Below are positions 3,046 through 22,625 of a DNA stretch of 34,550 nt, piece by piece. A program made the translations under genes and the position numbers. The stretch comes from an uncultured Gammaproteobacteria bacterium. Its GTDB lineage: Bacteria; Patescibacteriota; Patescibacteriia; CAIXNZ01. The DNA is taken from contig CAZHFK010000004.1 in NCBI GenBank assembly GCA_964531215.1, positions 1-34,550 of the forward strand, given 5' to 3'. The stretch's first letter is position 1; every line of letters begins with the position of its first letter. The notes below the pieces were generated by a model. That model did not search any database. It was not told the origin of the DNA and saw nothing but the letters and a program-made list of their open reading frames with translations.

Positions 3046-3050
3046 TATAT

Positions 3051-3497
3051 TTAAGTTTCTCGTTCAATGGTTAAACCTATATTAGCTGAGACATCGTCGC
3101 TAAAAATAATATTAATATCATAATAACCAAGCTGCTTGATTGGCTGATCCAATTTAATAAACTCTGCAGGAATATCATAATTGCGATTTTTTAATTCTTG
3201 GGCAATATCAGCTTCTTTAATGGCAGCAAAAAGTGTTTTTTTATCATCAGCTTTAGCTTTAATGATAATTTTCAAATTATTAATTTTTTTTGCTAATTCC
3301 TTATATTGCTTTACTTTATTGGCTGTTTTTTTCTGTTGTTTCTGTTTTTTAAACTCAAGCTGGTTGATAACTGATTCAGTGGCAACTTTTACCAAACCTT
3401 GTGGTAATAAAAAATTACGAGCATAACCATCAGCCACTTCTTTAATTTCACCTGTTTGTCCTAAATTAGGCACTTTTTTTAATAAAACTACTTTCAT
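3051..3497 (-). CDS. rplI: 50S ribosomal protein L9
   Basis: MKVVLLKKVPNLGQTGEIKEVADGYARNFLLP signature. Confidence 0.98.
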   Translation of the reverse strand: MKVVLLKKVPNLGQTGEIKEVADGYARNFLLPQGLVKVATESVINQLEFKKQKQQKKTANKVKQYKELAKKINNLKIIIKAKADDKKTLFAAIKEADIAQELKNRNYDIPAEFIKLDQPIKQLGYYDINIIFSDDVSANIGLTIERET

Positions 3498-3609
3498 AAA
3501 TAAAAAAATTAAGCTATTAATCTTAATTCCCCCTTTAATATATTTTACATAAAAAAAAATGTATTGGCAAATTCTTGATAATTGCTAATTTCAAATTAAC
3601 AATTTCCAA

Positions 3610-3978
3610 TTATTTGCCAAATAAGCGACTTAAAAAACCGCCTTTTTCTTCTTCTTGCTCACTACTCCCAGCTCTTGCTTCTTGCATTATTAAATTATAA
3701 ATCCTTTGGGCTTCTTGCTTAACCAAATCCGAATCATAATCACCCGAATGAGCTTTTTGGCCTTGATAAGAAGCTTGCTTTTGATCAATATGCAAACTTA
3801 AAATTAACGGATCTTCAGAATTAATATACATATGAAACCGCGGATAAAAACCTGACTGGCCTAAACGACGAGAATAACTGCGTTGCTCAGCTCTGGGATC
3901 ACGCACTAAGCCATAACCGCAACGGCGAATTAATTGATCAGTCGGTATATTGAATTTTTGTTTAAAATTAAGGTTCAT
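3610..3978 (-). CDS. Hypothetical protein (start revised to MNLNFKQ)
   Basis: ORF with YPRFHMY/LHIDQ motif; ATG at 3978 overlaps the hicA-like stop (ATGA). Confidence 0.7.
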   Translation of the reverse strand: MNLNFKQKFNIPTDQLIRRCGYGLVRDPRAEQRSYSRRLGQSGFYPRFHMYINSEDPLILSLHIDQKQASYQGQKAHSGDYDSDLVKQEAQRIYNLIMQEARAGSSEQEEEKGGFLSRLFGK

Positions 3979-4220
3979 AATTCTTTTTTTATATCTTGCC
4001 AATTAACATTACTAATTTCTTCTATTTCTTTAATTACATAAAACAAAACATCTTTTCTTATTTTTACTGGCACTGTCACAGACTTATCATTTGCCGGCCA
4101 AATTATTTTATAATGACTACCATCACCACCCTTTTTATCTATAATAAAACCGAGTCGCTTTAACGCCTTGGTAAATTTTCTACGCTTAATTTCTCCTGGC
4201 AATTCGCTAAGCGAGGGCAT
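3975..4220 (-). CDS. hicA: HicA-family toxin (start revised to MPSLSELPG)
   Basis: 81 aa, basic; KALKRLGF...GGDGSHYKI...VTVP matches the HicA dsRBD-like pattern with catalytic His. Confidence 0.8.
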   Translation of the reverse strand: MPSLSELPGEIKRRKFTKALKRLGFIIDKKGGDGSHYKIIWPANDKSVTVPVKIRKDVLFYVIKEIEEISNVNWQDIKKEL

Positions 4221-4533
4221 AAGCTTCTTGATTGGCATTAACTTTATGCAATCCAGCTTTATTAGCAAATGAAGAAGGAATCTCAAAAGAGGTTAAAATC
4301 GCATCTTTGATCTTTTTATCTAATTCTTTTTCATTTTCTGCAGAGGTAATAATTGAACCATACTTGAAATTTGTACTAACAGCAATTACTTCGTCGTCTT
4401 TTCTTTCAAATTTAAAATTAATCGGTTCATAAATACGAAAATAATGCTCCAATTCATAAAGACCACTGGGCACATATTCTTTTCCCCACAATTTCTTCAA
4501 TAAAATATCTTTCATTTTTCTTGTAAATGACAT
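4207..4533 (-). CDS. HicB-like antitoxin (N-terminal partial RNase H-like domain only)
   Basis: EVIAVS...IITSAENEKELDKKIKDAI resembles the HicB N-domain; overlaps the hicA start; start 4533 or 4515. Confidence 0.6.
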   Translation of the reverse strand: MSFTRKMKDILLKKLWGKEYVPSGLYELEHYFRIYEPINFKFERKDDEVIAVSTNFKYGSIITSAENEKELDKKIKDAILTSFEIPSSFANKAGLHKVNANQEAYALA

Positions 4534-4541
4534 GATAATCA

Positions 4542-4571
4542 AAGTTAACACAATTTAACTATATATGTCAA
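4542..4571 (-). promoter_or_regulatory. sigma70-type promoter with overlapping palindrome (possible TA operator)
   Basis: Minus strand TTGACA (4571-4566), then TG-n-TAACTT; AGTTAA-n6-TTAACT at 4543-4560. Confidence 0.5.
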
Positions 4572-4658
4572 TTATATCATATTATTAAAAAAATATAACG
4601 TTAGGAATGACAATGTGGGACGAGGATAGATTGTTCTTTAAGTATATTAAGATTCATA

Positions 4659-5012
4659 TTACTTCTCTTTTTCAAATTTCACTTTAAAAATCGGCATATA
4701 TTTATTCCCCCATTCATCAGTAATCTCCACTGTTTCGCCTTTCATTAATTTATTAAAAGCCAAATCACTAATCATTTCGTTATCAGTATCTATATCCAGT
4801 TTCAAATCTTCCAATTTTTCAAAATCTTTAACCATTGACTGCTTGATAACATTTTCTATTTCTTTTTTTTGCTGTTTTAATGATTCCAATTCATCCTTAA
4901 TTTCCTGATATTCCTGATTATTGGTTAGTTCATCTTTATAAGCCTGACGAATTGCTTTTTGTTCTTCTTTAAATTGATTTATACGATCATAAATTTCCTG
5001 TATTTTTGACAT
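4659..5012 (-). CDS. Coiled-coil hypothetical protein
   Basis: 117-aa E/K/Q-rich ORF ending GETVEITDEWGNKYMPIFKVKFEK. Confidence 0.75.
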   Translation of the reverse strand: MSKIQEIYDRINQFKEEQKAIRQAYKDELTNNQEYQEIKDELESLKQQKKEIENVIKQSMVKDFEKLEDLKLDIDTDNEMISDLAFNKLMKGETVEITDEWGNKYMPIFKVKFEKEK

Positions 5013-5090: not shown

Positions 5091-5167
5091 GTTGTTATTG
5101 GTCTGGCTTGAACTATATAAAAATCCCAATTTTTAAACTTTTGAGTCATAGCCCATTCAATATCACA
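5091..5167. repeat. Direct repeat copy A (77 bp, orphan copy of the 3' end of the PEP/pyruvate-binding gene)
   Basis: Identical to 5659-5735; the adjacent 5084-5090 also encodes T-L-stop with synonymous codons. Confidence 0.95.
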
Positions 5168-5178
5168 TAACAGTCGTT

Positions 5179-5207
5179 ATGTCATCCTGAATATATGAAG
5201 GATCTAC
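5179..5207 (+). repeat. Left REP-like inverted repeat
   Basis: atgtcatcctga-atatat-gaaggatctac; reverse complement of 5614-5643 except for the loop. Confidence 0.85.
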
Positions 5208-5257
5208 GACCCCATTTAGACGAGAATCATTTATAATCTCTACCGGACATAACGACC

Positions 5258-5548
5258 TTATTTAATTATATCATCGTAAAAATCGCGAAAATCAGGATTC
5301 ATTGATTGTATTAAAGCTATTTTCTTTTTTCTTATCCATCCCTTTATCTGTTTTTCTCTGGCAATAGCTTGATTTATATTGTTATATTCTTCAAAATAAA
5401 CTAATTTAGTGACATTATATTTTTTAGTAAATCCCTCAATTAATTTATTCTTATGTTGATATACACGACCAACTAAATCGCTTGTCACTCCAGTATAATT
5501 CACTGTGTTATAATTATTCATCATAATATATATCCAATAAGAATTCAT
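5258..5548 (-). CDS. GIY-YIG nuclease family protein (start revised to MNSYWIYIM)
   Basis: YWIYIM..NTVNYTGVTSDLVGRVYQHK..GFTKKYNVTKLVYFE..AIAREKQIKGW.R.KK, the small standalone GIY-YIG pattern. Confidence 0.93.
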   Translation of the reverse strand: MNSYWIYIMMNNYNTVNYTGVTSDLVGRVYQHKNKLIEGFTKKYNVTKLVYFEEYNNINQAIAREKQIKGWIRKKKIALIQSMNPDFRDFYDDIIK

Positions 5549-5613
5549 AATATTAATATCTAAGAAAAACATAATGTCTATCAAATATTCAAGTATTAAA
5601 AAAATGAGTAATT

Positions 5614-5643
5614 GTAGATCCTTCGACACGCTCAGGATGACAT
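5614..5643 (-). repeat. Right REP-like inverted repeat
   Basis: gtagatccttc-gacacgc-tcaggatgacat. Confidence 0.85.
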
Positions 5644-5651
5644 TATGTTTT

Positions 5652-6629
5652 TTAAAGTGTTGTTATTGGTCTGGCTTGAACTATATAAAAATCCCAATTT
5701 TTAAACTTTTGAGTCATAGCCCATTCAATATCACAAGGATGGCCGTAGTGTTTTTCAATCTTCTGACATATTTTACCCAAATCAACAATCTGTTCATCGG
5801 TTAATTTTTGTTTTTCCCTATCTTCTGAATCAATAGTAATCCAGTGATTGCCACCGTTTTCTGTATTATCACGAACAATTTTTTTATCCTGTTTGGAAAT
5901 ATTAATATCAATTATTTCCCAGTCATCTTTATTAATCACATAAGAATCAGGCGTAATCTGACCACCAACAATAGCCTCACCCAAACCATAACCGGCTTCA
6001 ATTATCATTTGATTATTATCTTTAGTTACCGGATGAACTGTAAAGGTAATGCCTGAAATATCAGATTCAATCATGACTTGAATAACCACTGCGACTGAAA
6101 CCTTAATTTCTCGCATACCTTTTTCCATCCGATAAACAATGGCTCTCGGCGTAAAAAGTGAGGACCAACATTTTTTAATATTACCAATCAAATGATCTTG
6201 GTCAGTATTTAAATACGACTCCAATTCTCCTGCCCAGGAAGCAGTAGATGAATCTTCAGCCGTCGCACTGGAACGTACTGCAACCCAACGTACATCTCCG
6301 CCAGAGGCGGATAATTTTTTAAACTCTGCCATTATTTCTGTCTGCAAATCCTCTGGAAACTTAGCATCATGGATTAAATCAGCAATAGTACGTGAAGCCT
6401 CGTCAACAGAATTTACATCTTCATAATTAACTTTATTTAACTGCGCTTCAATTTCCTGAACTAAATCAGTTTCCGCTAAAAACTGATCAAAAGCTGAAGC
6501 AGTAACCACAAATCCGGGCGGCACAGGAATACCGGCCTGAGTCATTTCACCCAAAGAAGCGCCTTTACCGCCGGCGAGATGAGTGTCGGTTTTATTTAGT
6601 TGTGTGAAATTTTTGATAAAGTCTGACAT
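5652..6629 (-). CDS. PEP/pyruvate-binding (ATP-grasp) domain protein; N-terminal module of the PEP synthase/PPDK family
   Basis: GGKGASLGEM, VPPGFV, VAVRSSATAED, EAGYGLGEAIVGGQITPD, DIEWA, QARPIT; lacks the His and PEP-binding C-terminal domains. Confidence 0.9.
   Translation of the reverse strand: MSDFIKNFTQLNKTDTHLAGGKGASLGEMTQAGIPVPPGFVVTASAFDQFLAETDLVQEIEAQLNKVNYEDVNSVDEASRTIADLIHDAKFPEDLQTEIMAEFKKLSASGGDVRWVAVRSSATAEDSSTASWAGELESYLNTDQDHLIGNIKKCWSSLFTPRAIVYRMEKGMREIKVSVAVVIQVMIESDISGITFTVHPVTKDNNQMIIEAGYGLGEAIVGGQITPDSYVINKDDWEIIDINISKQDKKIVRDNTENGGNHWITIDSEDREKQKLTDEQIVDLGKICQKIEKHYGHPCDIEWAMTQKFKNWDFYIVQARPITTL
5659..5735. repeat. Direct repeat copy B (77 bp, within gene 3' end)
   Basis: Identical to 5091-5167. 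Confidence 0.95.
6297..6311. repeat. 15-bp palindrome in-frame in CDS (encodes SASGG)
   Basis: tccgcc-aga-ggcgga; exact reverse complement at 26136-26150. Confidence 0.8.
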
Positions 6630-6911
6630 ATAAGTTCATTATACTAATATATTGAGTTTAATATAATTTATTAAAATTAGCAACCAATTATTCAATTTTA
6701 TCGCCTAAAATTAGCCTAAAAAACAAAATTGAACAAAAAAACTATTGACAAATATTTACTCTTGTGATAAGTTATTATAATCTTTAAATATAAACAAAGG
6801 AGGTGTTCTTTGTAATCAATAAATATTTAATGGGTAAAGAAACAAGTTAGCTTGCGTTTTAATGTAAGCTTGGGAAAAATCAAACACAAAAGGAAAGAAA
6901 GGAGAGAAAAC

Positions 6912-8039
6912 ATGAAGAAAAAAAGGCTTTCCCTGATGGCAATGGTATTGGGCATAATCATGACCATGGCAATCGGCTGCGGCACGGCAGAAGACGGCTA
7001 CAACAACGTTCCCCAAAACCCGATCGTAGGTCCCGAAGAAATCGGCGAAAACCCGGCCCCGAATCCCAGCGACACTGAAAACGTGAGCGTGGCCATTGAG
7101 TTCACGGACGAATACCTGTCCACCAACACCGAACTGGCCGAATGGATGGCACTCAAGGAAGCTGAGCAGACCTGCGAAGAAAGCGGGAATATCTGTCCCC
7201 AGCTCGTCACGGGCGCCCCGCCTGTCCAGATCTTCGGTACCCTGGTCTCGCAGGATGCCTGGGAAGACGATACTCGCTGGAATCCATGGGATACGACCCA
7301 GGCCAACGTGAGAGACGTCTCCGCCTTTGTCAGTGGCAACGTGTTGACCATGTCGTTTACCGTACCCGTGGGACGTTATTACCATCTGGGCTACATAGTC
7401 CAAGGCGTGATGATGTTCCACAATATCTCGGTCAACGGTACGACCATTAACAGCTTCTGCACGCTGGGCGACCCGGTAGATTATTGGACTTGGGGCGTCG
7501 CGGCCTTTAAGGTCAATCGCCTCAGTGACGGCTCGATCGTGGTTGAGGAGAGCGAATTCTGCAGCGAAACCGGCTATAACGCGCTCTGGACATTGAGCGG
7601 CGTGTCCCAGGACAACCCGCTATACAGCGACAGTCCCTCGGTATTGCCCTACGATGACGGTGCTGACGGAGACGACGAAGGCCCGATCATGATGTCCAGT
7701 AACCTGATCTACAATTCAACGCCGGTAGAAATAACCAACTTCAACGCGGCCAGTGCGAGATACGAAGCAGACTTCTATTTGCTCGAGGGCATGGCCAGCC
7801 GGTTTGCCTGCTATCATCCGGGACGTGAAGTCACTGGCAGCGCCGACGTACCCTGCGCCGACCAGAAACTGACTCTGACACCTCTGCCGTCAGGAACCGC
7901 CGGAGCCTCGCAGGAACTGCGACATGCGGAAAACTTCCAGACCACATTGCCGGCATACTACGAGTTCACCCTAAACGGCATCACCAGCGGTGTGCTCGAC
8001 CAGGACGCCAATAACCGCGATACCGTCCTCGGTATCTAA
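6912..8039 (+). CDS. GC-rich acidic putative lipoprotein (start revised to MKKKRLS)
   Basis: Basic N-terminus, hydrophobic stretch and lipobox-like MAIGC; purine-rich RBS ggagag; GC content far above flanks. Confidence 0.8.
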   Translation: MKKKRLSLMAMVLGIIMTMAIGCGTAEDGYNNVPQNPIVGPEEIGENPAPNPSDTENVSVAIEFTDEYLSTNTELAEWMALKEAEQTCEESGNICPQLVTGAPPVQIFGTLVSQDAWEDDTRWNPWDTTQANVRDVSAFVSGNVLTMSFTVPVGRYYHLGYIVQGVMMFHNISVNGTTINSFCTLGDPVDYWTWGVAAFKVNRLSDGSIVVEESEFCSETGYNALWTLSGVSQDNPLYSDSPSVLPYDDGADGDDEGPIMMSSNLIYNSTPVEITNFNAASARYEADFYLLEGMASRFACYHPGREVTGSADVPCADQKLTLTPLPSGTAGASQELRHAENFQTTLPAYYEFTLNGITSGVLDQDANNRDTVLGI

Positions 8040-13663: not shown

Positions 13664-13730
13664 ATTTGGCTTATAGCTTATAGCAAATAGCCAATAGTAT
13701 CAACTATTAACCATATGCCATTAGCTATTT
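13664..13730. repeat. Inverted array of degenerate heptamers (NNATRGC)
   Basis: atttggc ttatagc ttatagc aaatagc caatagt / actatta accatat gccatta gctattt. Confidence 0.65.
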
Positions 13731-14567
13731 ATCATTTGCCAAATACTCAGCTAATGCTTCTTGCCAATTCCTTAATTGCGGTAGTTTAGTATTTATTAAA
13801 GCTGAATAAGCCGGACGCTGGGCCGGTCGAGGAAATTCTTTTGTTGAGCAAGGCTGTAAATCAATTTTAATTTCAGCCAATTCAAAAATTTTCTGAGCAA
13901 AATCATGCCAAGAAATCCCGCCGGTTTTTGTTTCATTTGTTACATGATAACTGCCAAAATCCAAATTATTATCTAAAATATATCTAATTTGCTCAGCCAA
14001 GTCAATTGTCCGGGTCGGTTTGCCAAACTGATCATTAACTACTTTTAAACTATCTTTTTCCTGAGCTAATTTTAACATGGTTTCTACAAAATTATTACCT
14101 TTTTTACCATACAGCCAAGAAGTCCGAATTAAATAATAGTTATCGGCTTTTTCCTTTAAAAACAACTCGCCTTTTAATTTTGACCGGCCATAAATATTTA
14201 AAGGATCAATTGCCTGAGAATCTTCAGTATAGCCTTGTTTATTCTGACCATTAAAAACATAATCAGTGGAAATATGCATTAAAGTCGTGTCCATTTCTTT
14301 TGTTATTTCTGCCAAATAACCGACTGCCAAACCATTAACTTGCATGGCCAAATCCTGATTTGTTTCACAGCCGTCAACATCAGTATAAGCAGCGCAATTA
14401 ATAATAATATCCGGTTTTAAATTTTTAATTTTAGAATTAACCTGATTTTGATCAGTAATATCTATTTCCGGCTGGTCCCATAAAATCAAATTAAAATCAG
14501 CCAAGATTGTGCGTAAATCCTGGCCTAACATACCCTGGGCACCTAAAATTAAAATTTTTTTATTCAT
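13725..14567 (-). CDS. rmlD: dTDP-4-dehydrorhamnose reductase (start revised to MNKKILILG)
   Basis: GAQGMLG, NCAAYTDVDGCE, HISTDYVF, YGRSK, PAQRP. Confidence 0.95.
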   Translation of the reverse strand: MNKKILILGAQGMLGQDLRTILADFNLILWDQPEIDITDQNQVNSKIKNLKPDIIINCAAYTDVDGCETNQDLAMQVNGLAVGYLAEITKEMDTTLMHISTDYVFNGQNKQGYTEDSQAIDPLNIYGRSKLKGELFLKEKADNYYLIRTSWLYGKKGNNFVETMLKLAQEKDSLKVVNDQFGKPTRTIDLAEQIRYILDNNLDFGSYHVTNETKTGGISWHDFAQKIFELAEIKIDLQPCSTKEFPRPAQRPAYSALINTKLPQLRNWQEALAEYLANDK

Positions 14568-14607
14568 ATATTGTATTTTAAAATAAACTTTAAATTTAAG
14601 CAAATCA

Positions 14608-14659
14608 AAAGCCCTTTGTTTTTCCATTGTTTATGATACAATGTTTAACAAAGGGCTTT
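14608..14659 (-). terminator. Long hairpin/terminator overlapping the stop of the upstream ORF
   Basis: aaagccctttgtt...aacaaagggcttt with inner cattgt/acaatg stem. Confidence 0.6.
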
Positions 14660-15180: not shown

Positions 15181-15234
15181 TATATTATAAATACAATAAT
15201 TTTAATTAAATTTTTATTCTTAATTTTAATAAAT

Positions 15235-15846
15235 ATGAACTTTGAATCTATGCCAAACAATCAACCTCAAAATCCCTCTGACGAGGGCATTGAATTACCG
15301 CCAGAAGCCTTATCTGGCGAACCCGGTGATAAAATACCGGGTCTGGAAACTGAAGAAACAAAAGAAAGTGTAACCGGAGAAACAATGGAAGCTATGCAAA
15401 AATTCATTAACTGGGAAAAAGACATTGAAGAATTATCGCCAGAAGATATGCCTGAATTTATCAGCAAACTAGGCCAAGAAATGCAAAATGATAAATTGCT
15501 TAAAACCTATCCGGATCTCAGATTTAAGTATCTGGATGTTAGAGCTAAAGCTTTGCAAAAAGCCGGTCATCTTACTTTGGATATATTAAGCAAACCAGAC
15601 GAAAAGCCAATTGATAATGTTTTAAGAGAAATGAAAAAAGCCAAAGAAGCTAAAAGCGAAAAAGTTAAAAAATATATTTATGAAAAAAATGATGATGATT
15701 TAAATGCTATCATTAATAGTTACAAAGAACAATTAGCCAGTCCCGATATTTTAGCGGCTCAAAAAGAAAAAATCCAAAGTGATTTAAAAGATGCCCAAGA
15801 ATTAAAAGATACTGTTGAACAATTAAAAAATAACACGATACAATAA
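15235..15846 (+). CDS. Hypothetical acidic/helical protein
   Basis: 203-aa ORF downstream of a consensus promoter. Confidence 0.75.
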   Translation: MNFESMPNNQPQNPSDEGIELPPEALSGEPGDKIPGLETEETKESVTGETMEAMQKFINWEKDIEELSPEDMPEFISKLGQEMQNDKLLKTYPDLRFKYLDVRAKALQKAGHLTLDILSKPDEKPIDNVLREMKKAKEAKSEKVKKYIYEKNDDDLNAIINSYKEQLASPDILAAQKEKIQSDLKDAQELKDTVEQLKNNTIQ

Positions 15847-15880
15847 AAAAGAAGAGATCCATCAAAGGGTCTCTTTTTTT
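15845..15880. terminator. Probable bidirectional terminator
   Basis: aagagatcc-atcaaa-gggtctctt with A/T tracts between convergent genes. Confidence 0.6.
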
Positions 15881-16362
15881 ATTTCTGATTTTTTATGTTT
15901 TAATTTACGCAGTTTCTCGTGATGATAATATAAATACAATAACCAAGTTGCAATTATAATACCGATAGAATCAATTAAAACATCTTTATAATTACCCACT
16001 CTGCCCTGCACCAATGTCTGATGATATTCATCAGATATAGCATATAAAACAGCAAAAACAAAAGCCCAAAATAAATCCCAATAAACATACCTTTTTTCAG
16101 TATATTTAAGAATCCTAAAAATCAAAAAAGTCAAAACACCAAACTCAAAAATATGGGCAAATTTTCTAATAATCCAACCCCATTCATCGGTTGCGGATAA
16201 AAAAGTCAATGGTTGAGAAGACAAATAATAAATAGCCCCTGCCCAAATAATCAATAATAACCATTTTTCAAATTTTTGAAACTTTTTATTGGCTAAAATT
16301 AATTGCGCTTCTTCATGCTCAATTATCTTTTTAATTTTTGGCTTAATTTTTTCAAATTTCAT
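15862..16362 (-). CDS. VanZ family membrane protein
   Basis: IYYLSSQP, IRKFAHIFEFGVL, YAISDEYHQTLVQGR, DVLID. Confidence 0.9.
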   Translation of the reverse strand: MKFEKIKPKIKKIIEHEEAQLILANKKFQKFEKWLLLIIWAGAIYYLSSQPLTFLSATDEWGWIIRKFAHIFEFGVLTFLIFRILKYTEKRYVYWDLFWAFVFAVLYAISDEYHQTLVQGRVGNYKDVLIDSIGIIIATWLLYLYYHHEKLRKLKHKKSEIKKETL

Positions 16363-17369
16363 CGCTCTTGATATTGTTTTTTATAATATTCCTGGTATTG
16401 GCCTGATTTAACCCTTTGCCACCAGTCTTGATTATTTTTATACCAATCAATTGTTTCTTTTAAGCCGGTTTGGAAATCAATCTTAGGCTGCCAACCGAGC
16501 TCATTTTTTGCTTTTGTAAAATCAATTGAATAACGCAAATCATGGCCTGGTCGGTCTTTAACATATTCAATCATTTCTTCACCTTTATCCATTAATTTTA
16601 AAATTTTTTTAGTCAGCTCAATATTTGTCATTTGCCTATTCCCTCCCAGACAATAAGTTTCACCGATCTTTCCGTTTTTAATAATCAAATCAACTCCCTT
16701 ATTATGATCATCTACATGAATCCAATCCCTGATATTTTCCCCTTCTCCGTATATGGGAATTTTTTTATCCTCAATTAAATTAGTTACAAACAAAGGAATT
16801 AATTTTTCCGGAAACTGATACGGCCCGTAATTATTGGAGCAATTGGAAATTGTGATCGGTAAACCATGTGTATGGTAATAAGCCCTGACCAAATGATCAG
16901 CAGCGGCTTTACTGGCAGAATAAGGGCTTCTGGGATCATAAGGAGTCTTTTCAGTAAAAGCCGGCTGGTCAATAGTCAATTCGCCAAAAACTTCATCAGT
17001 GGAAATATGGTGGAACCTCTTATGGCCATTATTTTTGGCTGAATCTAAAAGCACTCTGGTTCCCTCAACATTTGTTCTGATAAAATCACTACTACCCATA
17101 ACTGACCTGTCAACGTGCGTTTCTGCAGCAAAATGGACAATTAAATCTATATCCTGACTAACCAAATCATTAACCAAATCAAAATCACAAATATCGCCTT
17201 TAATAAATTTATAATTATTTTTATTCTCAATATCTTTTAAATTTTCCAAATTACCGGCATAAGTTAATTTATCCAAATTAACAATAAAATCATCCGGATA
17301 ATTTTTTAGCCAGTAATGAATAAAATTTGAGCCAATAAAACCGGCCCCGCCGGTAACTAATAATTTCAT
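16359..17369 (-). CDS. rmlB: dTDP-glucose 4,6-dehydratase
   Basis: VTGGAGFIGSNF, DKLTYAGN, AAETHVDRS, STDEVFG, YSASKA, DRPGHDLRY. Confidence 0.98.
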   Translation of the reverse strand: MKLLVTGGAGFIGSNFIHYWLKNYPDDFIVNLDKLTYAGNLENLKDIENKNNYKFIKGDICDFDLVNDLVSQDIDLIVHFAAETHVDRSVMGSSDFIRTNVEGTRVLLDSAKNNGHKRFHHISTDEVFGELTIDQPAFTEKTPYDPRSPYSASKAAADHLVRAYYHTHGLPITISNCSNNYGPYQFPEKLIPLFVTNLIEDKKIPIYGEGENIRDWIHVDDHNKGVDLIIKNGKIGETYCLGGNRQMTNIELTKKILKLMDKGEEMIEYVKDRPGHDLRYSIDFTKAKNELGWQPKIDFQTGLKETIDWYKNNQDWWQRVKSGQYQEYYKKQYQER

Positions 17370-17370
17370 A
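17321..17370. repeat. Direct repeat, left copy (first 16 codons of intact rmlB)
   Basis: 49/50 identical to 20353-20402. Confidence 0.95.
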
Positions 17371-17415
17371 AAATATTTTTTTATATATTTAATTTATCAG
17401 CTTTAATAAAATTAA

Positions 17416-18456
17416 TCAATGAAGCCAGAATAAATTTTTCAAATCCTTGCCCAGCTTATAAGCATTCGCGTGCGACAAAACTCCTAGATATGATTGTAGC
17501 GATTGCTCTAATCTTACCGCGCTAATTTTACCTTTTTTATATTCATCAATCCTTGCGCCCAATTTCTTAAAAATCCGCTTTTTTGTTTTAGATCTGATAA
17601 GCCGGTGATGCGGCCTTAAAACATAACCCAAAAAATCAATGCCTTGGGAAAATTTGCGGATGCTTATTTTATTTGGGTGCAGCCTCAAATCAAGATTGTT
17701 ATTTAAGAATTTTTTAATCTCTAAATTTATAAGCTTCAAATAAGCCGTATCGTCTGCGGCTATGACAAAATCATCAGTATAACGAACATAAAATTTAACT
17801 TTTAAAATCTGCTTTACGAATTGATCCAGCTCATTAAGATAAATGTTGGCAAATAGCTGGGAAGTTAAATTACCGATAGGAATACCTCGTCGCTCAAATA
17901 AGGCAGAGTAATTTGTTTGGTAGCTCCCAATAATCTCTTTAATCAGCCAAATAACGTCCCTGTCTTTAATTTTGCGGCAGATAATCTCCAGTAAAATTTT
18001 ATGATTCACCGTATCAAAAAATTTTTTAATGTCGCATTTTAATGCATAGCACGGCTTGTGTCCATTGTCGCTGACTTGGCGCAGTATTTTAACTAAAGCT
18101 TCCACTCCTTTATGCGTACCCTTACCAATACGGCAAGAGAAGGAATTCGGGATAAAAGCTACTTCAAAAACTGAATTTAGAACAGAAAAAATTGCATGAT
18201 GCAAAACCCTATCCCTGACTTCTGCCTTGTAAATATGCCGCTGTTTTGGGTCATTGATGTAAAATGAGGTATAGGGGCTATGCCCATATGTTTTGGCTGC
18301 TAATTCTTCGTGCAATTTAAAGATGTTTTCTTCCAAATTCCATTCAAACTCCAAAACGTCCTTTTTCTTTCTTTTGTCTTTTTTAAATTCGTCCCAAGCT
18401 GAAAATAAATTTTCCAAGGATATAATTTTATTAAATAATTCATTGTAAAAACGCAT
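17416..18456 (-). CDS. DGR reverse transcriptase
   Basis: RDRVLHHA, SCRIGKGTH, KCDIKKFFD, GIPIGNLTSQLFANIYL, YVRYTDDFV, GIDFLGY; 346 aa with no maturase/endonuclease domain. Confidence 0.96.
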   Translation of the reverse strand: MRFYNELFNKIISLENLFSAWDEFKKDKRKKKDVLEFEWNLEENIFKLHEELAAKTYGHSPYTSFYINDPKQRHIYKAEVRDRVLHHAIFSVLNSVFEVAFIPNSFSCRIGKGTHKGVEALVKILRQVSDNGHKPCYALKCDIKKFFDTVNHKILLEIICRKIKDRDVIWLIKEIIGSYQTNYSALFERRGIPIGNLTSQLFANIYLNELDQFVKQILKVKFYVRYTDDFVIAADDTAYLKLINLEIKKFLNNNLDLRLHPNKISIRKFSQGIDFLGYVLRPHHRLIRSKTKKRIFKKLGARIDEYKKGKISAVRLEQSLQSYLGVLSHANAYKLGKDLKNLFWLH

Positions 18457-18840
18457 ATGGAAATTTTAGAAGCGCCGATTTATAAAAAAATCGTTGATCT
18501 TTACAAAACCCTGCATCTTTACAGGAATTCAATCCCTAAACAGGACCGCTTTACTATCTGGCAAAGATGCGAAAATACAGCGATTGAGATTTTAAACCTA
18601 TTGCTTTTATGCGCGCAACTGTCCAAAGAGCAAAAACTCGCGGAAATGGAGAACTTAAGCCGCCAATTAAACATTTTGAGAGTCTTGCTAAGGGTGGCAA
18701 AAGAGGTCAGGACAATTGACAATAAAAAGTACGTCCATCTGCAGATGATAATTGATGAAATTGGCAGACAGCTGGGTGGCTGGATAAAGTCGGTTAAAAA
18801 TCCTAAAGAAAATACCCCCGCTAAGGGCGAGGGCATTTAG
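18457..18840 (+). CDS. avd: DGR accessory variability determinant (Avd-like four-helix bundle)
   Basis: 127 aa, basic; IPKQDRFTI..R, LRVLLRVA, IDEIGRQLGGWIK; adjacent to TR and RT. Confidence 0.88.
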   Translation: MEILEAPIYKKIVDLYKTLHLYRNSIPKQDRFTIWQRCENTAIEILNLLLLCAQLSKEQKLAEMENLSRQLNILRVLLRVAKEVRTIDNKKYVHLQMIIDEIGRQLGGWIKSVKNPKENTPAKGEGI

Positions 18841-19265
18841 ACTGGTAAGAAAAAGAAGTTCCCAACGAGCGCGACGCGCAGGTTTTGATTGGAGTTGTCA
18901 TTCCAGTTGTTGTTGACATTGAGCCCATTGGCATTGAAATTGCCGACATTGACTCGGTTGCCATTGGAGTCCAGCGAAAATTTACCCGCTTCCATCATTA
19001 ATCACTGAAAGTTGAAGTTTACGTCCTTTTCAGAATTATATCTTCTCCTCTCTGTATTTTATTTGGGAGCAAAATCTTAGATAAACCAAGACGTCTCCGC
19101 CAGAAACGGGCAAGAAGTTCTTTTTCTATCTTTAATTGCGCGCTACCTGGCTCCGTAAAGACAGGTACTCTAGCAATCCCTAAGATAGGGACTTGGCGAG
19201 CTTGAGCCTTAACCCAAACTACATTAGCCAAGCCCAGAACCAGAATCGGTTCTGGGCAAGCAGTC
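18810..19265 (-). ncRNA. Inferred TR-containing DGR RNA (ends approximate)
   Basis: Extended -10 at 19273-19281, 5' hairpin 19232-19257, TR, 3' stem-loop 18813-18835. Confidence 0.5.
18864..18979 (-). repeat. DGR template repeat (TR)
   Basis: 116 bp with 14 AAY codons in the target frame (SLDSNGNRVNVGNFNANGLNVNNNWNDNSNQNLRVALV). Confidence 0.96.
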
Positions 19266-19272
19266 CATCTTT

Positions 19273-19281
19273 ATTATAACA
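19273..19281 (-). promoter_or_regulatory. Extended -10 promoter for the TR(-RT) transcript
   Basis: TGTTATAAT on minus strand just after the target-gene terminator. Confidence 0.6.
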
Positions 19282-19282
19282 A

Positions 19283-19326
19283 AATTTAAAAAATCCCGCA
19301 TCATATTTTGCATACAATGCGGGATT
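19283..19326 (-). terminator. Hairpin/terminator downstream of DGR target gene
   Basis: aatcccgcat-15 nt-atgcgggatt followed by a T-run on the minus strand. Confidence 0.7.
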
Positions 19327-19400
19327 GCTATTTTCTCATTTTCTGAAATTGAATTCAAGATTCAATTTTCAAAAAATCAAGAAAGTCAATGACTCAAGGA

Positions 19401-20192
19401 TCAATTTTCAAACTTCCGAACGAGCGCGACGCGCAGGTAAGGATTGGAGTAGTCATACCAGCCGTCGTAGACATTGAGCCCATCGGCATCGAAATCGCCG
19501 ACACTGACTCGGTAGCCATAGGAGTCCAGCGAAATGCCCCGGTGCCACCAGTCTTCGGCGATCCGCTCTCCATTATTGACCATGTAAATGGTCAAAATGG
19601 TTTCGCTAAAGACAGCCTCATGGCAACGTTCGTACTCTTTGCCAAGTTTGTCAATCTCTCTTTCCTTCTGCTTCCAGTTCAGGTTAGCGAACTGGCCGCG
19701 AAAATTGATGAGATAATAGCCGGGTTGGGCTTTATGGGTCGCCCATTTGTCTTCCGAACGTTCCAGCCACCAGGTGTTATCTTTGTAAAAACAGGGTTGG
19801 CTGTTTTGGCTGGTTCCGCGCTTGTCGTGCTGTTCTCGCAAGCTCAGGCCAAAGCAGTAGACTACTCGCCAGTCCTCGCCGCTTTTGTTTTGCTCTGCGC
19901 AGGCGCGCAGAGTCGCCTCACTGTAGCGGATGGCCATATCCTTTGGATCTTCCTTTATCCAGGCTTTGGCCGCCTGGTCCGCGGAGATGACTTTGTTCTG
20001 GCCGAGGATGTCTATGGCCTGTTCCAAGGTCAGAGAAACGTCAGAGGTTTCAGTCTGCGGCTTCTTCTCCAGAAAATTCTGCAAAACCGCCACAAACTCT
20101 TCCGGATCATGCGTCCCATCCAGAATGCCCTTTCCGATCTGTGTTTCCAGACTCCAAATCCTGCTCCTTATTTTTTCACTTACTTTCGGCAT
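19401..20192 (-). CDS. DGR target (variable) protein with C-terminal VR, presumably C-type-lectin-like fold
   Basis: AAAAGGAGG SD; the last ~43 codons contain the VR; GC-rich; no signal peptide seen. Confidence 0.92.
   Translation of the reverse strand: MPKVSEKIRSRIWSLETQIGKGILDGTHDPEEFVAVLQNFLEKKPQTETSDVSLTLEQAIDILGQNKVISADQAAKAWIKEDPKDMAIRYSEATLRACAEQNKSGEDWRVVYCFGLSLREQHDKRGTSQNSQPCFYKDNTWWLERSEDKWATHKAQPGYYLINFRGQFANLNWKQKEREIDKLGKEYERCHEAVFSETILTIYMVNNGERIAEDWWHRGISLDSYGYRVSVGDFDADGLNVYDGWYDYSNPYLRVALVRKFEN
19419..19534 (-). repeat. DGR variable repeat (VR)
   Basis: 101/116 identical to TR; all 15 mismatches at TR adenines. Confidence 0.96.
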
Positions 20193-20285
20193 TGCTCATG
20201 CCCTCCTTTTGTTCTTGCCCATTACTCATGGGGTTAGAGGTGTCTTGTTATTCGGTTGATAAATTACACGCTATTTTCATATAAA

Positions 20286-20314
20286 ATTATAGCATATTAT
20301 CTTAAAAAAGTCAA
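20286..20314 (-). promoter_or_regulatory. sigma70 promoter of DGR target gene
   Basis: TTGACT-17 bp-TATAAT with TGn extension. Confidence 0.8.
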
Positions 20315-20352
20315 CCCACAACCTAGTAATTTAACTAACTTTATATAAAAAC

Positions 20353-20402
20353 TAAAATTTGAGCCAATAAAACCGGCACCGCCGGTAACTAATAATTTCA
20401 TA
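20353..20402 (-). pseudogene. Orphan rmlB 5' fragment (direct repeat, right copy)
   Basis: Encodes MKLLVTGGAGFIGSNF, then diverges and stops after 34 codons. Confidence 0.9.
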
Positions 20403-20405
20403 TAT

Positions 20406-20473
20406 TTTTAGCTTAGAGCTTCAAGCATTGGACTTTAGTCAAAAAACTCAAAGCTTATTACTCATAGCCCAGA
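20406..20473. repeat. Inverted array of degenerate heptamers
   Basis: ttttagc ttagagc ttcaagc ... actcaaa gcttatt actcata gcccaga. Confidence 0.5.
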
Positions 20474-20532
20474 ACCAATTATTATGTTAAAATATATGTA
20501 TAATTTATCATAAAAATTTATTAAAATCAATT

Positions 20533-21009
20533 ATGAAAATTCCCATTAGAAAAGGTTTTAGTTTTGGTCTGACCTCAGCTGTGATTACCACCTTGGGCAT
20601 TATAGTCGGCTTAAATGCTTCAACCCAATCAAAGGTAGCTGTTATTGGCGGTATTTTATCAATCGCCATTGCTGATGCTTTTGCCGATGCTCTTGGCATT
20701 CATATTGCCGAAGAATCAGAACTAAATAAAGAGACCAAATTCCAATGGGTAGCTGCTATATCTGCTTTTTTAACCAAGCTTGTTTTTGCTTTAACTTTTA
20801 TTTTGCCTATTTTGTTTTTAAGTGATGAACAAGCGATTATTGTCAGTTTAATTTGGGGGCTGGGACTATTAAGTATTTTTTCTTATTATTTGGCTAAAAA
20901 ACAAAAAATCCAGCCCTGGAAAGCCATTGCTGAACATGTTTTAATTGCCATTGCCGTAATTATAATCACGCATTTTGTCGGTCAATGGATTCGTCAATTT
21001 TTTATTTAA
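20533..21009 (+). CDS. VIT1/CCC1-like membrane protein
   Basis: FSFGLTSAVITTLG, IAIADAFADALGIHIAEESE, multiple TM segments. Confidence 0.78.
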   Translation: MKIPIRKGFSFGLTSAVITTLGIIVGLNASTQSKVAVIGGILSIAIADAFADALGIHIAEESELNKETKFQWVAAISAFLTKLVFALTFILPILFLSDEQAIIVSLIWGLGLLSIFSYYLAKKQKIQPWKAIAEHVLIAIAVIIITHFVGQWIRQFFI

Positions 21010-21457
21010 TTAAATCAAAATTTCCATTAATAATTACGGGGCGCATGCCTTTAATTTCTTCAAAATAAGAAACTTTCTCAGGAATCGGTTTTAGCAAATA
21101 AATTGTCTTTTTTAACCAGCAAGCCACACCCATTTCCATTAAAGTATTCCCGCCAATATAACCGGGGATATTATTTTTGTCATAATTTAAAACTAAAATA
21201 CAATCAGCCTGACCGACTTTATCAAAATGCCAATTGATAGCTTCTTTTTTCCTCTGCCAAACCCAATCATCATTATCACCTTTTTCAATCATATTTTTGC
21301 GAATTTGATAATATTCTTCAACCGGAATAAAATCACCCGTCTCATTTTTCACCTGATGAGGCGGAATTAAAACTTGATGGCCAATTGCTTCAAGTTTTTC
21401 TTTCACTTCAATAACCTGAGGCCAAAATTTTATTGAGGCACAAATTGTGATAATCAT
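21002..21457 (-). CDS. Hypothetical protein, nucleoside 2-deoxyribosyltransferase-like fold (start revised to MIITICAS)
   Basis: ITICAS, HFDKV..ADCILVLN, GYIGGNTLMEMG.A. Confidence 0.65.
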   Translation of the reverse strand: MIITICASIKFWPQVIEVKEKLEAIGHQVLIPPHQVKNETGDFIPVEEYYQIRKNMIEKGDNDDWVWQRKKEAINWHFDKVGQADCILVLNYDKNNIPGYIGGNTLMEMGVACWLKKTIYLLKPIPEKVSYFEEIKGMRPVIINGNFDLIK

Positions 21458-21476
21458 ATTTTTTTCATTTAAAAAT

Positions 21477-22625
21477 CTATTTTTTGAATTTTTCAATAAA
21501 TCTTCTAAGTATATCTTCGAATAGTTCGACGTCTTTGTTTTTTGCCTTTTCAAGAACTCTTTTATATTCTTTGATAAAAATTTGCAAATTTTGATCAAGA
21601 CTTGAGATTAAATTTTCATCACCGCTAAATAAATATTTTTCTAAACTATTTATTTCTTTTATAATATTTTTAATTAAAGTTTCTGACTCTGATTTATTTA
21701 AGTGACTGACTATGTCTTTCATAGCCTCATTAAGCTCGCCATGTATAAAATTAATTCTAGCAGCTTCTTTTAACATTTCCTCTGTTTCACCAACATCTGA
21801 ATGTCCTAAAAAATAATCTGTATTAATCTTACCAAAATCAGTTTTATCAAAGAATTTTTTAAATTTATTATAATATTTTAGAGCTTCTTCCTTATTATAA
21901 TCATCTTCAGCAGTATTCTTATCTTGTGCTACTGTGTTCAAATAATCAATATTACCAAAAATAGAACCGATAACTTCTTTTTTATCTCTTATAATTATCA
22001 GTCTATAATCTGAAAAAGATTCATTAATTTTTAAAACTGGGACATTATTTAATTCAATAATTTCTGGATTGATTGGTTCAACTATATTATTTATTAAATC
22101 AACATAAACGAACTGTCCATCAGACAATTCAACTATATTTAAAATATGACCGACAGGAATACCATGATAATTTTTTATCCCCGCCTTATCTAACAGAGCT
22201 GATCCTATTAAAGTTGATCCAACACAATTAAACTGACCTGTTTCCCTAAATCTAGCTGGCCATGAATCCCACTTGGATCTTGGTTTTTTATTATTAGTCA
22301 TATAATCATTGACCTGACGTTGGCAGTCTTCAAGAAATTCTAATTCAAGCTTTGCTTTTTTTTCATAGTTAATTTCAGTTTCTATTTTACTAATTATTTT
22401 TTGAGAAGCTGCTATTCCCCAATCAGAAATAATATCATTGATTTCAGACATCAAACTATCATAAAAATATTCTTTTAATTCCCCAATTGAAAGCTTCTCC
22501 ACGTCAGCAGTTAAATTTTCATCCCCTACAATTAAAGCATGCCAAGCATCAATCATAATATCCTTTTCCTCCGGAGGAATTTCTTTGGATTTTGCTAAAT
22601 CATATTTAAATTCGATATTTTCCAT
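21477..22625 (-). CDS. Hypothetical protein, possible transglutaminase-like Cys-His-Asp domain
   Basis: FNCVG...GHILNIV...VYVD spacing. Confidence 0.6.
   Translation of the reverse strand: MENIEFKYDLAKSKEIPPEEKDIMIDAWHALIVGDENLTADVEKLSIGELKEYFYDSLMSEINDIISDWGIAASQKIISKIETEINYEKKAKLELEFLEDCQRQVNDYMTNNKKPRSKWDSWPARFRETGQFNCVGSTLIGSALLDKAGIKNYHGIPVGHILNIVELSDGQFVYVDLINNIVEPINPEIIELNNVPVLKINESFSDYRLIIIRDKKEVIGSIFGNIDYLNTVAQDKNTAEDDYNKEEALKYYNKFKKFFDKTDFGKINTDYFLGHSDVGETEEMLKEAARINFIHGELNEAMKDIVSHLNKSESETLIKNIIKEINSLEKYLFSGDENLISSLDQNLQIFIKEYKRVLEKAKNKDVELFEDILRRFIEKFKK

What the first reader, a model, noticed from the sequence alone, without database searches (positions are those of the whole stretch)
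17321..20402. Integrase-free DGR cassette bracketed by a 50-bp duplication of the rmlB 5' end
Seen: 17321-17370 and 20353-20402 match at 49/50 bp; the one difference is synonymous (GGG/GGT). Both encode MKLLVTGGAGFIGSNF, but only the left copy continues as rmlB. The 2982 bp between them hold only the DGR, with no recombinase. Inference: the DGR entered at the conserved Rossmann-motif codons of rmlB and restored the gene, as att-site elements do. It could also excise by recombination between the repeats. This points to an unexplained route of chromosomal DGR mobility.
Basis: partly seen in the sequence, partly recalled or inferred. Interest (0 to 1): 0.85.

Follow-up and report, generated by a model that had tools for sequence, protein, structure and literature searches.

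The report
Recombinase-free DGR cassette inside rmlB start
A 3-kb diversity-generating retroelement with no recombinase of its own sits in the first codons of a sugar-synthesis gene between two copies of those codons, and comparison with relatives shows it arrived by horizontal transfer, most likely through the host's own homologous recombination.

Summary
Window 17321-17370 and 20353-20402 match at 49/50. They bracket 2982 bp that hold only a DGR: target with VR, TR, bAvd and RT.

It is a real insertion. The same-genus genome G001 has a clean empty site with one copy. G008, from another genus, has the same element at the same site with the same two junctions. Between G000 and G008 the element is 87.6% identical, but the flanks only 70-73%. 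The element is therefore younger than the host split.

G000 and G001 differ by a recombination tract. Their rmlB genes are 77% identical, against about 91% and 87% in the DNA on either side. Gain or loss therefore went with allelic replacement. G000 has RecA, ComEC and one Xer-like recombinase, and no serine recombinase.

The pattern recurs. Among 74 related CPR DGR loci with enough flank, 8 are bracketed by direct copies of host sequence: gene ends, two promoters, and a tRNA-Arg 3' end. A GIY-YIG gene in this window shows the same scar, so the RT is probably not the agent.

Best reading: a recombinase-free cassette that spreads by transformation and homologous recombination, using the 49-bp relic as a homology arm. 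Excision and circles were not seen.

The parts
16359..17369 (-). Intact rmlB (dTDP-glucose 4,6-dehydratase-type SDR, 336 aa). Its allele is only 77% identical to that of the same-genus genome G001.
   Evidence: GDP_Man_Dehyd 8.7e-87; for the allele divergence.
17321..17369 (-). Left repeat copy: the first 16 codons plus 1 nt of the functional rmlB.
17370..17415 (-). 46-bp spacer between the RT stop and the rmlB ATG. This is the element's end and the new upstream region of rmlB. It is 46/46 identical in G008.
17416..18456 (-). DGR reverse transcriptase, 346 aa. It contains IGNLTSQ and YTDD.
   Evidence: RVT_1 1.4e-23.
18457..18840 (+). bAvd accessory protein, 127 aa. It diverges from the RT with no base between the two start codons.
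   Evidence: PF22296 7.5e-18.
18856..18979 (-). Template repeat (TR).
   Evidence: family D1; 15 of 17 mismatches at TR adenines.
19292..19326 (-). 15-bp-stem hairpin with a T run, downstream of the VR and the target stop.
19411..19534 (-). Variable repeat (VR), at the C-terminus of the target gene.
19401..20192 (-). DGR target protein, 263 aa, GC about 0.52, no Pfam family. Its nearest Atlas clusters are unnamed hypothetical proteins.
20286..20314 (-). Promoter-like site TTGACT-17-TATAAT (11/12, with TG) in front of the target gene. It is shared with the related element in G005:C4.
20353..20401 (-). Right repeat copy: a relic of the rmlB start. It heads a 34-codon dead-end ORF (20297-20401) and still lies behind the ancestral rmlB upstream region.
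20402..20532 (.). Ancestral rmlB upstream and divergent intergenic region. It is homologous to the DNA directly upstream of rmlB in G001.
20533..21009 (+). VIT-family gene, the right-hand chromosomal neighbour. It is adjacent to rmlB in the empty-site relatives.

Best explanation
This is an active-type DGR cassette of 2982 bp. It runs from its own target promoter to 46 bp past the RT stop and was inserted 49 nt into rmlB. One copy of the first 49 nt, the relic, stays with the old promoter. The other copy heads the intact gene, which now lies behind the RT. The cassette has no mobility enzyme. I infer that it is carried from genome to genome as an insertion allele by DNA uptake and RecA-dependent homologous recombination. 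One crossover falls in the relic, which pairs with nt 1-49 of a resident rmlB. The other falls in rmlB itself or beyond it. On an empty target these two arms lie side by side, so a linear fragment and a plain double crossover are enough. A circle with a single (Campbell) crossover would give the same product. The relic lies in one of the most conserved stretches of the gene, so the arm still works between genera. Shown: the insertion, the empty site, horizontal transfer to the same site with the same junctions, the absence of a recombinase, and a recombination tract across the locus. Inferred: uptake by competence, RecA dependence, and how the first duplication arose. For that first event I suggest a one-sided homologous and illegitimate join of a donor fragment holding DGR plus rmlB at nt 49 of the recipient's gene.
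For: (1) Empty site. In G001 the left flank (window 15200-17387, 84%) and the right flank (20353-21460, 86%) abut with one copy of the start. G001 has no match to the element at E<=1e-20. (2) Same site and same junctions in G008. Identity there is 2558/2920 = 87.6% for the element, 1033/1407 = 73.4% for the left flank and 742/1056 = 70.3% for the right flank. Third-codon identity is 77.7% in the RT and 55.5% in rmlB. Identity falls to background within about 100 bp outside the relic. (3) Recombination tract. My means of the rows for G000 against G001 are about 91% over 15200-16299, about 76% over 16400-17299 (rmlB) and about 87% over 20453-21452, with the break at the rmlB 3' end. Whole-gene rmlB identity is 77% within the genus, against 82-84% within two other genera. 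(4) The first 49 nt of rmlB rank 13th of 960 windows for conservation: 0.812 against 0.694 for the whole gene, 15 sequences. (5) G000 has RecA (8e-134) and ComEC (3e-54), one tyrosine recombinase and 0 serine recombinases. (6) There are no conserved termini. The 78%-identical element in G005:C4 and the 80%-identical L107 sit elsewhere. Homology runs only from the -35 of the target promoter to the RT stop. (7) The scar is not specific to RT cargo. A GIY-YIG gene in this window lies between two perfect 77-bp copies of a gene's 3' end, and a 306-aa ORF on C34 lies between 55-bp copies. (8) Cultivated Saccharibacteria are naturally competent, depend on comEC, and integrate DNA with arms as short as 221 bp (PMC10633639, passages read).
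Against: No experiment or read shows the transfer itself. A 49-bp arm is well below the 221 bp shown to work in Saccharibacteria, and its efficiency is unknown. The two copies in G000 differ at only 1 of 49 positions. This fits a very close donor or later gene conversion, but it also fits a target-site duplication. It cannot be told which of G000 and G001 carries the replaced rmlB allele, so the tract may mark loss in G001 rather than gain in G000. In L078 the gene next to the DGR is at native identity to the nearest relative (81-91%), so allele replacement is not a general companion of these insertions. How the first duplication arose is not shown. One tyrosine recombinase exists in G000, and helpers outside the genome cannot be excluded.
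Confidence: 0.58

Rival explanations
1. Site-specific integration by a recombinase supplied in trans, either the host Xer-like enzyme or a helper phage or island. The 49-bp rmlB start would act as attB/attP, as in cis-mobilisable elements that keep att sites but no integrase.
For: The direct repeats duplicate a gene end and the gene is restored. The same site and the same repeat boundaries occur in two genera. One related cassette (L161) sits between two copies of the last 28 nt of tRNA-Arg(CCT), a classic integrase target. The repeat holds a small palindrome, ACCGGCGGNGCCGGT. G008, G001 and G005 have a second Xer-like recombinase, with another DGR beside it in two of them.
Against: G000 has only one tyrosine recombinase (275 aa open frame) and no serine recombinase. 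The seven other bracketed cassettes use seven unrelated sequences of 24-101 bp with no shared motif, so this reading would need many different helpers. The palindrome is simply the T-G-G-A-G codons and is imperfect in relatives. The second recombinase sits next to the same pgeF-like gene in three genera, with or without a DGR beside it, so it looks chromosomal. The closest RT on a viral contig is only 58% identical. The rmlB allele replacement is not expected from att recombination.
Confidence: 0.17
2. Retro-mobility. The DGR's own RT copies a read-through transcript of the cassette and the cDNA is inserted by target-primed or repair-linked synthesis. This would give target-site duplications of variable length, as in non-LTR retrotransposons.
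For: An RT is the only enzyme in the cargo. The duplications vary in length, 24-144 bp. In the integrated state the old rmlB promoter could transcribe relic, cassette and rmlB start, giving an RNA with terminal repeats (inference).
Against: The shared element includes its own -35/-10 promoter, which an RNA started there would lack. No 3' end is conserved between related copies, and in G005:C4 homology stops inside the last RT codons. No endonuclease is present. The repeat boundaries are identical in G000 and G008, which independent staggered cuts would not give. The same scar surrounds cargo without an RT. The second DGR of G000 has no bracketing repeat.
Confidence: 0.07
3. Old vertical insertion. 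The cassette entered rmlB once in the family's ancestor, was lost precisely from most lineages by recombination between the repeats, and merely evolves more slowly than its flanks.
For: Precise loss between 49-bp repeats is mechanically easy and would leave exactly the G001 arrangement.
Against: Non-coding parts of the element are 87-100% identical between G000 and G008, while intergenic flank is 60.6%. Third positions are 77.7% identical in the RT and 55.5% in rmlB. 12 of 13 family relatives lack the cassette at rmlB, which would need many losses. The G000 relic is 48/49 identical to the live copy.
Confidence: 0.05
4. Assembly artefact. A separate circular or foreign contig was threaded into the chromosome at a shared 49-mer.
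For: The genome is a 71-contig metagenome-type assembly. No listed contig bridges 20335-20354.
Against: The copies differ in the middle, so they share at most 25 exact bases. G008 shows the same structure, with a decayed relic. Contigs of two runs bridge the left junction.
Confidence: 0.02

Closest known systems
Diversity-generating retroelements of Patescibacteria/CPR (clade 2 of Roux et al. 2021, PMC8144416, passages read; classification in Wu et al. 2018, PMC5758913, passages read)
   Same: It has an RT, bAvd, a TR/VR pair with adenine-specific differences, and a VR at the C-terminus of a small target without known domains. It is chromosomal rather than phage-borne.
   Different: The passages I read describe DGRs as retroelements that lost mobility and move on phages, plasmids or ICEs. 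Here the bare cassette is the transferred unit, lying between two copies of a host gene start.
Integrase-borne islands and ICEs that insert into gene ends and restore them, such as the Bacteroides DGR-carrying ICEs at tRNA-Lys (bioRxiv 10.1101/2024.11.15.621889, passages read)
   Same: Direct repeats come from a duplicated gene end, the gene is kept intact, and the same site is used in different hosts.
   Different: No integrase, excisionase or transfer genes are present. The whole unit is 3 kb. Related cassettes use unrelated sites of variable length.
Minimal mobile elements of Neisseria (Saunders and Snyder 2002; the concept is recalled, and I saw the term and reference only in PMC1538595)
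   Same: The cargo has no mobility genes and is exchanged between naturally competent relatives by homologous recombination in conserved flanking genes.
   Different: As I recall them, MMEs lie between two different conserved genes without duplication. Here one arm is a 49-bp duplicate of the neighbouring gene's own start.
Campbell-type integration of a non-replicating circle, and homology-facilitated illegitimate recombination in transformation (de Vries and Wackernagel 2002; Prudhomme et al. 2002; both recalled, not read here)
   Same: The product has the homologous segment on both sides of the insert, or a remnant of the recipient's gene next to the donor's copy.
   Different: These are laboratory or single-event observations. 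Here the structure is inherited, transferred between genera, and recurs at other conserved genes.
Non-LTR retrotransposons (target-primed reverse transcription)
   Same: The cargo encodes an RT and the flanking duplications vary in length.
   Different: There is no endonuclease and no conserved 3' end. The promoter lies inside the unit, the boundaries are identical in two hosts, and the same scar surrounds cargo without an RT.

Membership tests
Diversity-generating retroelement | Reverse transcriptase of the DGR type | tested here: met
   RVT_1 at 1.4e-23. The translation holds IGNLTSQ and YTDD; that these are the DGR-type motifs is recalled. The best relatives are RTs of TR/VR-bearing loci.
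Diversity-generating retroelement | TR/VR pair whose differences lie at TR adenines | tested here: met
   124-nt pair at 86% identity. 15 of the 17 mismatches lie at TR adenines.
Diversity-generating retroelement | VR at the 3' end of a target ORF; accessory Avd | tested here: met
   The VR (19411-19534) lies inside the ORF 19401..20192 (-), 10 nt from its end. bAvd PF22296 at 7.5e-18.
Diversity-generating retroelement | Ongoing mutagenic retrohoming (VR variants within a population) | tested here: inconclusive
   The laid contigs had depth 0-6 over the VR, and contigs drop rare variants.
Integrase-type integrative element (island, prophage, ICE) | Its own tyrosine or serine recombinase | tested here: not met
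   Only the RT, bAvd and target ORFs lie between the repeats. The genome has 1 tyrosine and 0 serine recombinases.
Integrase-type integrative element (island, prophage, ICE) | att-like direct repeats, with an empty site in relatives | tested here: met
Integrase-type integrative element (island, prophage, ICE) | Excised circular form | tested here: inconclusive
   No back-joint appeared in 4 runs of low-depth contigs. Contigs cannot show rare forms.
DDE or other transposon | Terminal inverted repeats and a target duplication of fixed length | tested here: not met
   No inverted pair lies at 17370/20352 among the 25 of 39 listed. Duplications are 24-144 bp in related cassettes. No termini are shared with the 78% relative.
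Non-LTR-like retrotransposon | Conserved 3' end used to prime cDNA; endonuclease | tested here: not met
Recombination-borne cassette (minimal-mobile-element-like) | No mobility genes; the host has RecA and DNA-uptake genes | tested here: met
Recombination-borne cassette (minimal-mobile-element-like) | Recombination tract ending in the conserved flanks | tested here: met
   The G000-G001 identity profile breaks at the rmlB 3' end and at the relic. The G000-G008 profile breaks at the relic.
Recombination-borne cassette (minimal-mobile-element-like) | Transfer depends on competence and RecA | not testable with these tools
   This needs genetics in a cultivable relative.

The most novel reading that the evidence does not exclude
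Relic copies of conserved host gene ends act as portable homology arms. On this reading, bare DGR cassettes of Patescibacteria, and other small cargo such as GIY-YIG genes, form a class of recombinase-free mobile cassettes. They behave as natural knock-in constructs that cross genus boundaries by transformation and RecA, because one arm is a short stretch of highly conserved sequence (a Rossmann or P-loop start, the FtsZ core end, a tRNA 3' end). This would make DGR-driven hypervariability itself a transferable module in these tiny genomes.
Probability: 0.4. Interest if true: 0.8.

Novelty: new variant of a known kind. Interest (0 to 1): 0.68.

Why it matters
DGRs are very common in Patescibacteria. 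The literature I could search describes cellular DGRs as immobile, or as carried by phages, plasmids or ICEs. [quoted passage not shown]

This locus gives a concrete and testable case. The transferred unit is the bare 3-kb cassette. It lands in the same 49 nt of a conserved gene in two genera, leaves the gene working, and needs no enzyme of its own. The same scar occurs in 8 of 74 related loci with enough flank, at FtsZ, RF2, YchF, UvrA and tRNA-Arg among others.

If the relic is indeed the homology arm, three things would follow. It would explain how accessory genes move between very small genomes that hold almost no mobile-element enzymes. It would give a signature for finding such transfers in metagenomes: a gene-end relic beside an intact copy. 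It would also suggest a design for knock-in constructs in Patescibacteria.

Tried and rejected
SDR starts as a general target. A protein motif for the SDR start was found in only 1 of 160 RT-related loci (L027, the same arrangement as G008), so I rejected this.

Common termini or att core. Cassettes at different sites align only over their coding parts, at 64-74%, and show no shared ends.

Phage vector. The best RT on viral contigs is 58% identical. This gives no support, but it is not evidence of absence.

Reads. Four runs of Logan contigs (X1-X4; two studies) were laid. No circle junction and no precise 3032-bp deletion was reported. One X4 contig joins 17373 to 20483 (skips 3109 bp, 31 nt on the shorter side). 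This looks like a relative with the short intergenic region seen in G005 and G004, and I give it little weight. A second joint (17542 to 21849, 21 nt on the shorter side) I regard as spurious. The parts without cover say nothing.

Crossover mapping. I compared the four repeat copies of G000 and G008 by eye. Too few informative sites exist to place a crossover. The G008 relic (39/49 to the G000 relic) is not significantly more diverged than neighbouring non-coding element DNA (144/160).

Allele replacement as a general rule. It is not seen at L078.

L093 and the repeats in L163, L046, L048, L073 and L160 are duplicated target genes, promoters, paralogues or low-complexity coding sequence, not insertion scars. 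I left them out of the count.

L102 has a 144-bp ychF-start repeat, but its nearest empty relative lacks a larger 5.9-kb block. It lies outside the survey's 600-bp search range and is kept as a lead only.

Rfam and tRNA scans of the window found nothing. The Atlas gave only unnamed clusters for the target.

Literature. Searches, with passages, gave no description of DGR cassettes bracketed by host gene-end repeats. Paul et al. 2017 is not held, and supplements are closed, so an earlier mention there cannot be excluded.

Full report
OBSERVATION. 17321-17370 and 20353-20402 agree at 49 of 50 positions, with a constant offset of 3032. The one difference is 17346 C against 20378 A, which is GGG against GGT on the coding (minus) strand. 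The coding part is 49 nt: the ATG and 15 further codons plus one base. The left copy heads a 336-aa ORF (16359..17369, minus) that matches GDP_Man_Dehyd at 8.7e-87 and Epimerase at 6.1e-65. It lies in an rml neighbourhood, with an RmlD-type gene at 13725..14627. The right copy reads MKLLVTGGAGFIGSNF, then 18 unrelated residues and a stop. A degenerate pattern of this start matches twice in the window, against 0.00 expected in 100 shuffles.

WHAT LIES BETWEEN. The 2982 bp hold a complete DGR and nothing else of size.
- An RT lies at 17416..18456 (minus; RVT_1 1.4e-23; it holds IGNLTSQ and YTDD).
- A bAvd gene lies at 18457..18840 (plus; 7.5e-18). It starts back to back with the RT.
- The TR is at 18856-18979 and the VR at 19411-19534.
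- The VR sits at the C-terminal end of a 263-aa ORF (19401..20192, minus). This ORF has no Pfam family and only unnamed Atlas neighbours.
- 15 of the 17 TR/VR differences lie at TR adenines.
- A 15-bp-stem hairpin follows the VR, and a near-consensus promoter (TTGACT-17-TATAAT) precedes the target.
- The target gene has GC about 0.52 in a genome of about 0.31.

IT IS AN INSERTION. The window is contig C4 of a 1.03-Mb, 71-contig genome, G000. In the same-genus genome G001 the left flank (window 15200-17387, 84%) and the right flank (20353-21460, 86%) overlap in one copy of the rmlB start. G001's rmlB is preceded by the DNA that lies to the right of the relic in the window. G001 has no match to the element at E<=1e-20. 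In 12 of 13 family relatives the 160 bp upstream of rmlB hold neither the RT end nor a second copy. The exception is G008, from another genus. There the same cassette lies at the same place, with both copies and the same two junctions. On one side the relic ends ...AAATTTT[A/G] and runs into [G/A]TTTTTATATAAAGTTAG. On the other side the element ends ...AAAAAATATTTT directly before the ATG.

THE ELEMENT IS YOUNGER THAN THE HOSTS. Table of G000 against G008:

| Region | Identity |
|---|---|
| Element | 87.6% (2558/2920) |
| Left flank | 73.4% (1033/1407) |
| Right flank | 70.3% (742/1056) |
| 46-bp spacer | 46/46 |
| TR | 119/124 |
| Intergenic DNA right of the relic | 60.6% |
| Third codon positions, RT | 77.7% |
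| Third codon positions, rmlB | 55.5% |

Identity drops to background within about 100 bp outside the relic. The higher identity of the first 200 nt of rmlB (87-89%) is also seen against G001 and G005, which lack the cassette there. It therefore reflects conservation, not co-transfer. The cassette thus reached at least one of these lineages horizontally and ended at the same nucleotides. Independent staggered cuts would not give identical boundaries. This points to integration guided by the repeated sequence itself.

A RECOMBINATION TRACT. G000 and G001 are about 91% identical over 15200-16299 and about 87% over 20453-21452. They are only about 76% identical over 16400-17299 (my means of the 100-bp rows), and the break falls at the rmlB 3' end. 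Whole-gene rmlB identity is 77% between them, no better than G000 against G008 (76%). Within two other genera it is 82-84%. One of the two genomes has therefore had its rmlB replaced, in a tract that ends at the DGR site. Gain in G000 or loss in G001 went with allelic replacement by homologous recombination. I cannot tell which of the two it was.

NO ENZYME OF ITS OWN, AND FEW IN THE HOST. G000 has one tyrosine recombinase (275 aa open frame) and no serine recombinase. It has RecA (8e-134) and ComEC (3e-54). G008, G001 and G005 have a second Xer-like gene next to a pgeF-like gene. In two of them another DGR lies beside it, and in the third none does, so I take it for a chromosomal gene. Related elements at 78-80% identity (G005:C4 and L107) sit at other sites without a duplication. 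They share with the window only the stretch from the -35 of the target promoter to the RT stop. There are no terminal inverted repeats.

HOW IT MOST LIKELY WORKS. On an empty target, nt 1-49 of rmlB and the rest of rmlB lie side by side. A donor fragment of the form relic, cassette, rmlB start and body therefore carries two collinear arms. A plain double crossover inserts the cassette plus one copy of the start. If the second crossover lies beyond rmlB, the donor's rmlB comes along, as the G000/G001 tract suggests. A circle with a single crossover would give the same product. The first 49 nt are among the most conserved windows of the gene (rank 13 of 960; 0.812 against 0.694), which would let the arm work between genera. 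Natural competence and recombination with arms down to 221 bp have been shown in cultivated Saccharibacteria (PMC10633639, passages read). A 49-bp arm is untested. The first duplication may have arisen when a donor fragment (DGR plus rmlB), anchored by homology at the rmlB end, was joined illegitimately at nt 49 of the recipient's gene. That step is inference.

After insertion the old promoter faces the relic and the target gene. rmlB lies 46 bp behind the RT with no terminator-like site between them in the region scanned.

THE PATTERN RECURS. I fetched 160 loci by RT similarity, 80 from genomes and 80 from metagenomes. 74 of them have at least 2.6 kb before the RT and 350 bp after it. I compared the 600 bp after the RT with the DNA 1.4-5 kb before it. 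This gave a direct match in 11 loci and an inverted match in 6. Strong matches (at least 21 nt) were direct in 9 and inverted in 1. One of the nine (L093) is a duplicated target gene. One (L027) is the G008 arrangement. The other seven duplicate host sequence:

| Locus | Repeat length | Host sequence duplicated |
|---|---|---|
| L078 | 71 bp | ftsZ 3' end |
| L129 | 33 bp | start of an RF2-type gene |
| L115 | 40 bp | uvrA promoter |
| L161 | 28 bp | 3' end of tRNA-Arg(CCT) |
| L032 | 24 bp | 3' end of an APH-type kinase gene |
| L035 | 101 bp | region holding a decayed ychF start |
| L095 | 73 bp | promoter region of a PHP-type gene |

None has a recombinase between the copies. For L078, relatives show the empty site: G044 and at least six more have the neighbouring gene next to the ftsZ end. 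There ftsZ is at native identity. The second DGR of G000 has no such repeat.

NOT SPECIFIC TO RT CARGO. A scan of G000 for nearby direct repeats found a perfect 77-bp pair in this same window, at 5091-5167 and 5659-5735. It duplicates the 3' end of a PPDK_N gene and brackets a GIY-YIG gene. On C34 a 55-bp pair brackets a 306-aa ORF. This argues for a host process rather than the RT.

READS. Eight of ten listed runs hold part of the stretch, and two hold more than half of its words. Four were laid, as contigs only and at depth about 2-6. Contigs of X2 and X3 bridge the left junction. No circle or precise-loss joint was reported. One short-sided joint resembles a relative's empty site.

KNOWN WORK. 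The passages I read call DGRs retroelements that lost mobility and move with phages, plasmids or ICEs. Searches gave no account of bracketing host-gene repeats.

VERDICT. The finding is real and its reading is largely right. The mechanism is probably ordinary homologous recombination used in an unusual way. Interest 0.68; a new variant of a known kind.

Noticed in passing
window 5091-5167 and 5659-5735 (insert 5168-5658): A perfect 77-bp direct repeat duplicates the last ~25 codons of a PPDK_N gene (5652..6629, minus). It brackets a 123-aa GIY-YIG nuclease gene (5258..5629, minus; PF01541 7.5e-15). The ends of the insert look like short inverted repeats by eye in the sequence, not tool-checked. 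This is the same kind of scar as at the DGR, with cargo that has no RT.
   Followed up: partly
window 6852-8039: About 1 kb has GC 0.56-0.57 in a genome of about 0.31. It holds a 395-aa ORF with no Pfam family and only weak Atlas neighbours (score 0.83). From the spacing of two G001 matches I infer that G001 is collinear here, so it is probably not a recent insertion.
   Followed up: partly
window 18454-18459: The RT (minus) and bAvd (plus) start codons abut with no base between them, and the TR lies after the avd stop. A TR-to-RT transcript would therefore run antisense through avd. The same layout occurs in G005:C4 and many related loci.
   Followed up: no
G000:C3 (L208 5792-8263): G000 has a second DGR (target 225 aa, TR, bAvd, RT 351 aa) directly upstream of leuS, with no bracketing repeat.
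   Followed up: partly
G000:C34 19-73 and 1088-1142; G000:C18 17775-17869/18764-18859 and 19256-19367/21483-21595: Further nearby direct repeats of 55-113 bp. On C34 and at C18 19256/21483 they duplicate a gene's 3' end; the C18 17775/18764 pair looks intergenic. They bracket one to four ORFs: a 306-aa ORF without a family, a methyltransferase, and small ORFs without families.
   Followed up: partly
L192 (G002:C3) 2538-3377: An orphan DGR-target-like gene (279 aa, 71% identical to the window's target over the VR half) lies between an HD-domain gene and rmlB. It has no TR, Avd or RT beside it and no rmlB relic. The same-genus genome G009 has the HD gene directly next to rmlB.
   Followed up: partly
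L297 (G008:C65) 1225-4681; L298 (G001:C3) 556-2988: Another DGR lineage (RT 333 aa) lies tail to tail with a 315-320-aa Xer-like tyrosine recombinase gene near a pgeF-like gene. G005:C44 has the recombinase and the pgeF-like gene without the DGR. G000 has no such recombinase in its assembly.
   Followed up: partly
L067 2994-3075 and 6182-6263: A perfect 82-bp inverted repeat brackets a DGR cassette, next to tRNA-Gly and tRNA-Phe genes. This was the only strong inverted case among the 74 loci.
   Followed up: no
L078 3104-3160: A ~50-bp sequence just before the ftsZ relic recurs at 94-100% identity on four other contigs of the same genome (G041), so it is a small dispersed repeat.
   Followed up: no
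rmlB of G004, G007, G003: These three family members, from three genera, carry a second rmlB type. It is 78-81% identical among them but only 57-65% identical to the rest. G007 differs from its own genus mates G011 and G013, so rmlB is itself exchanged between lineages.
   Followed up: no
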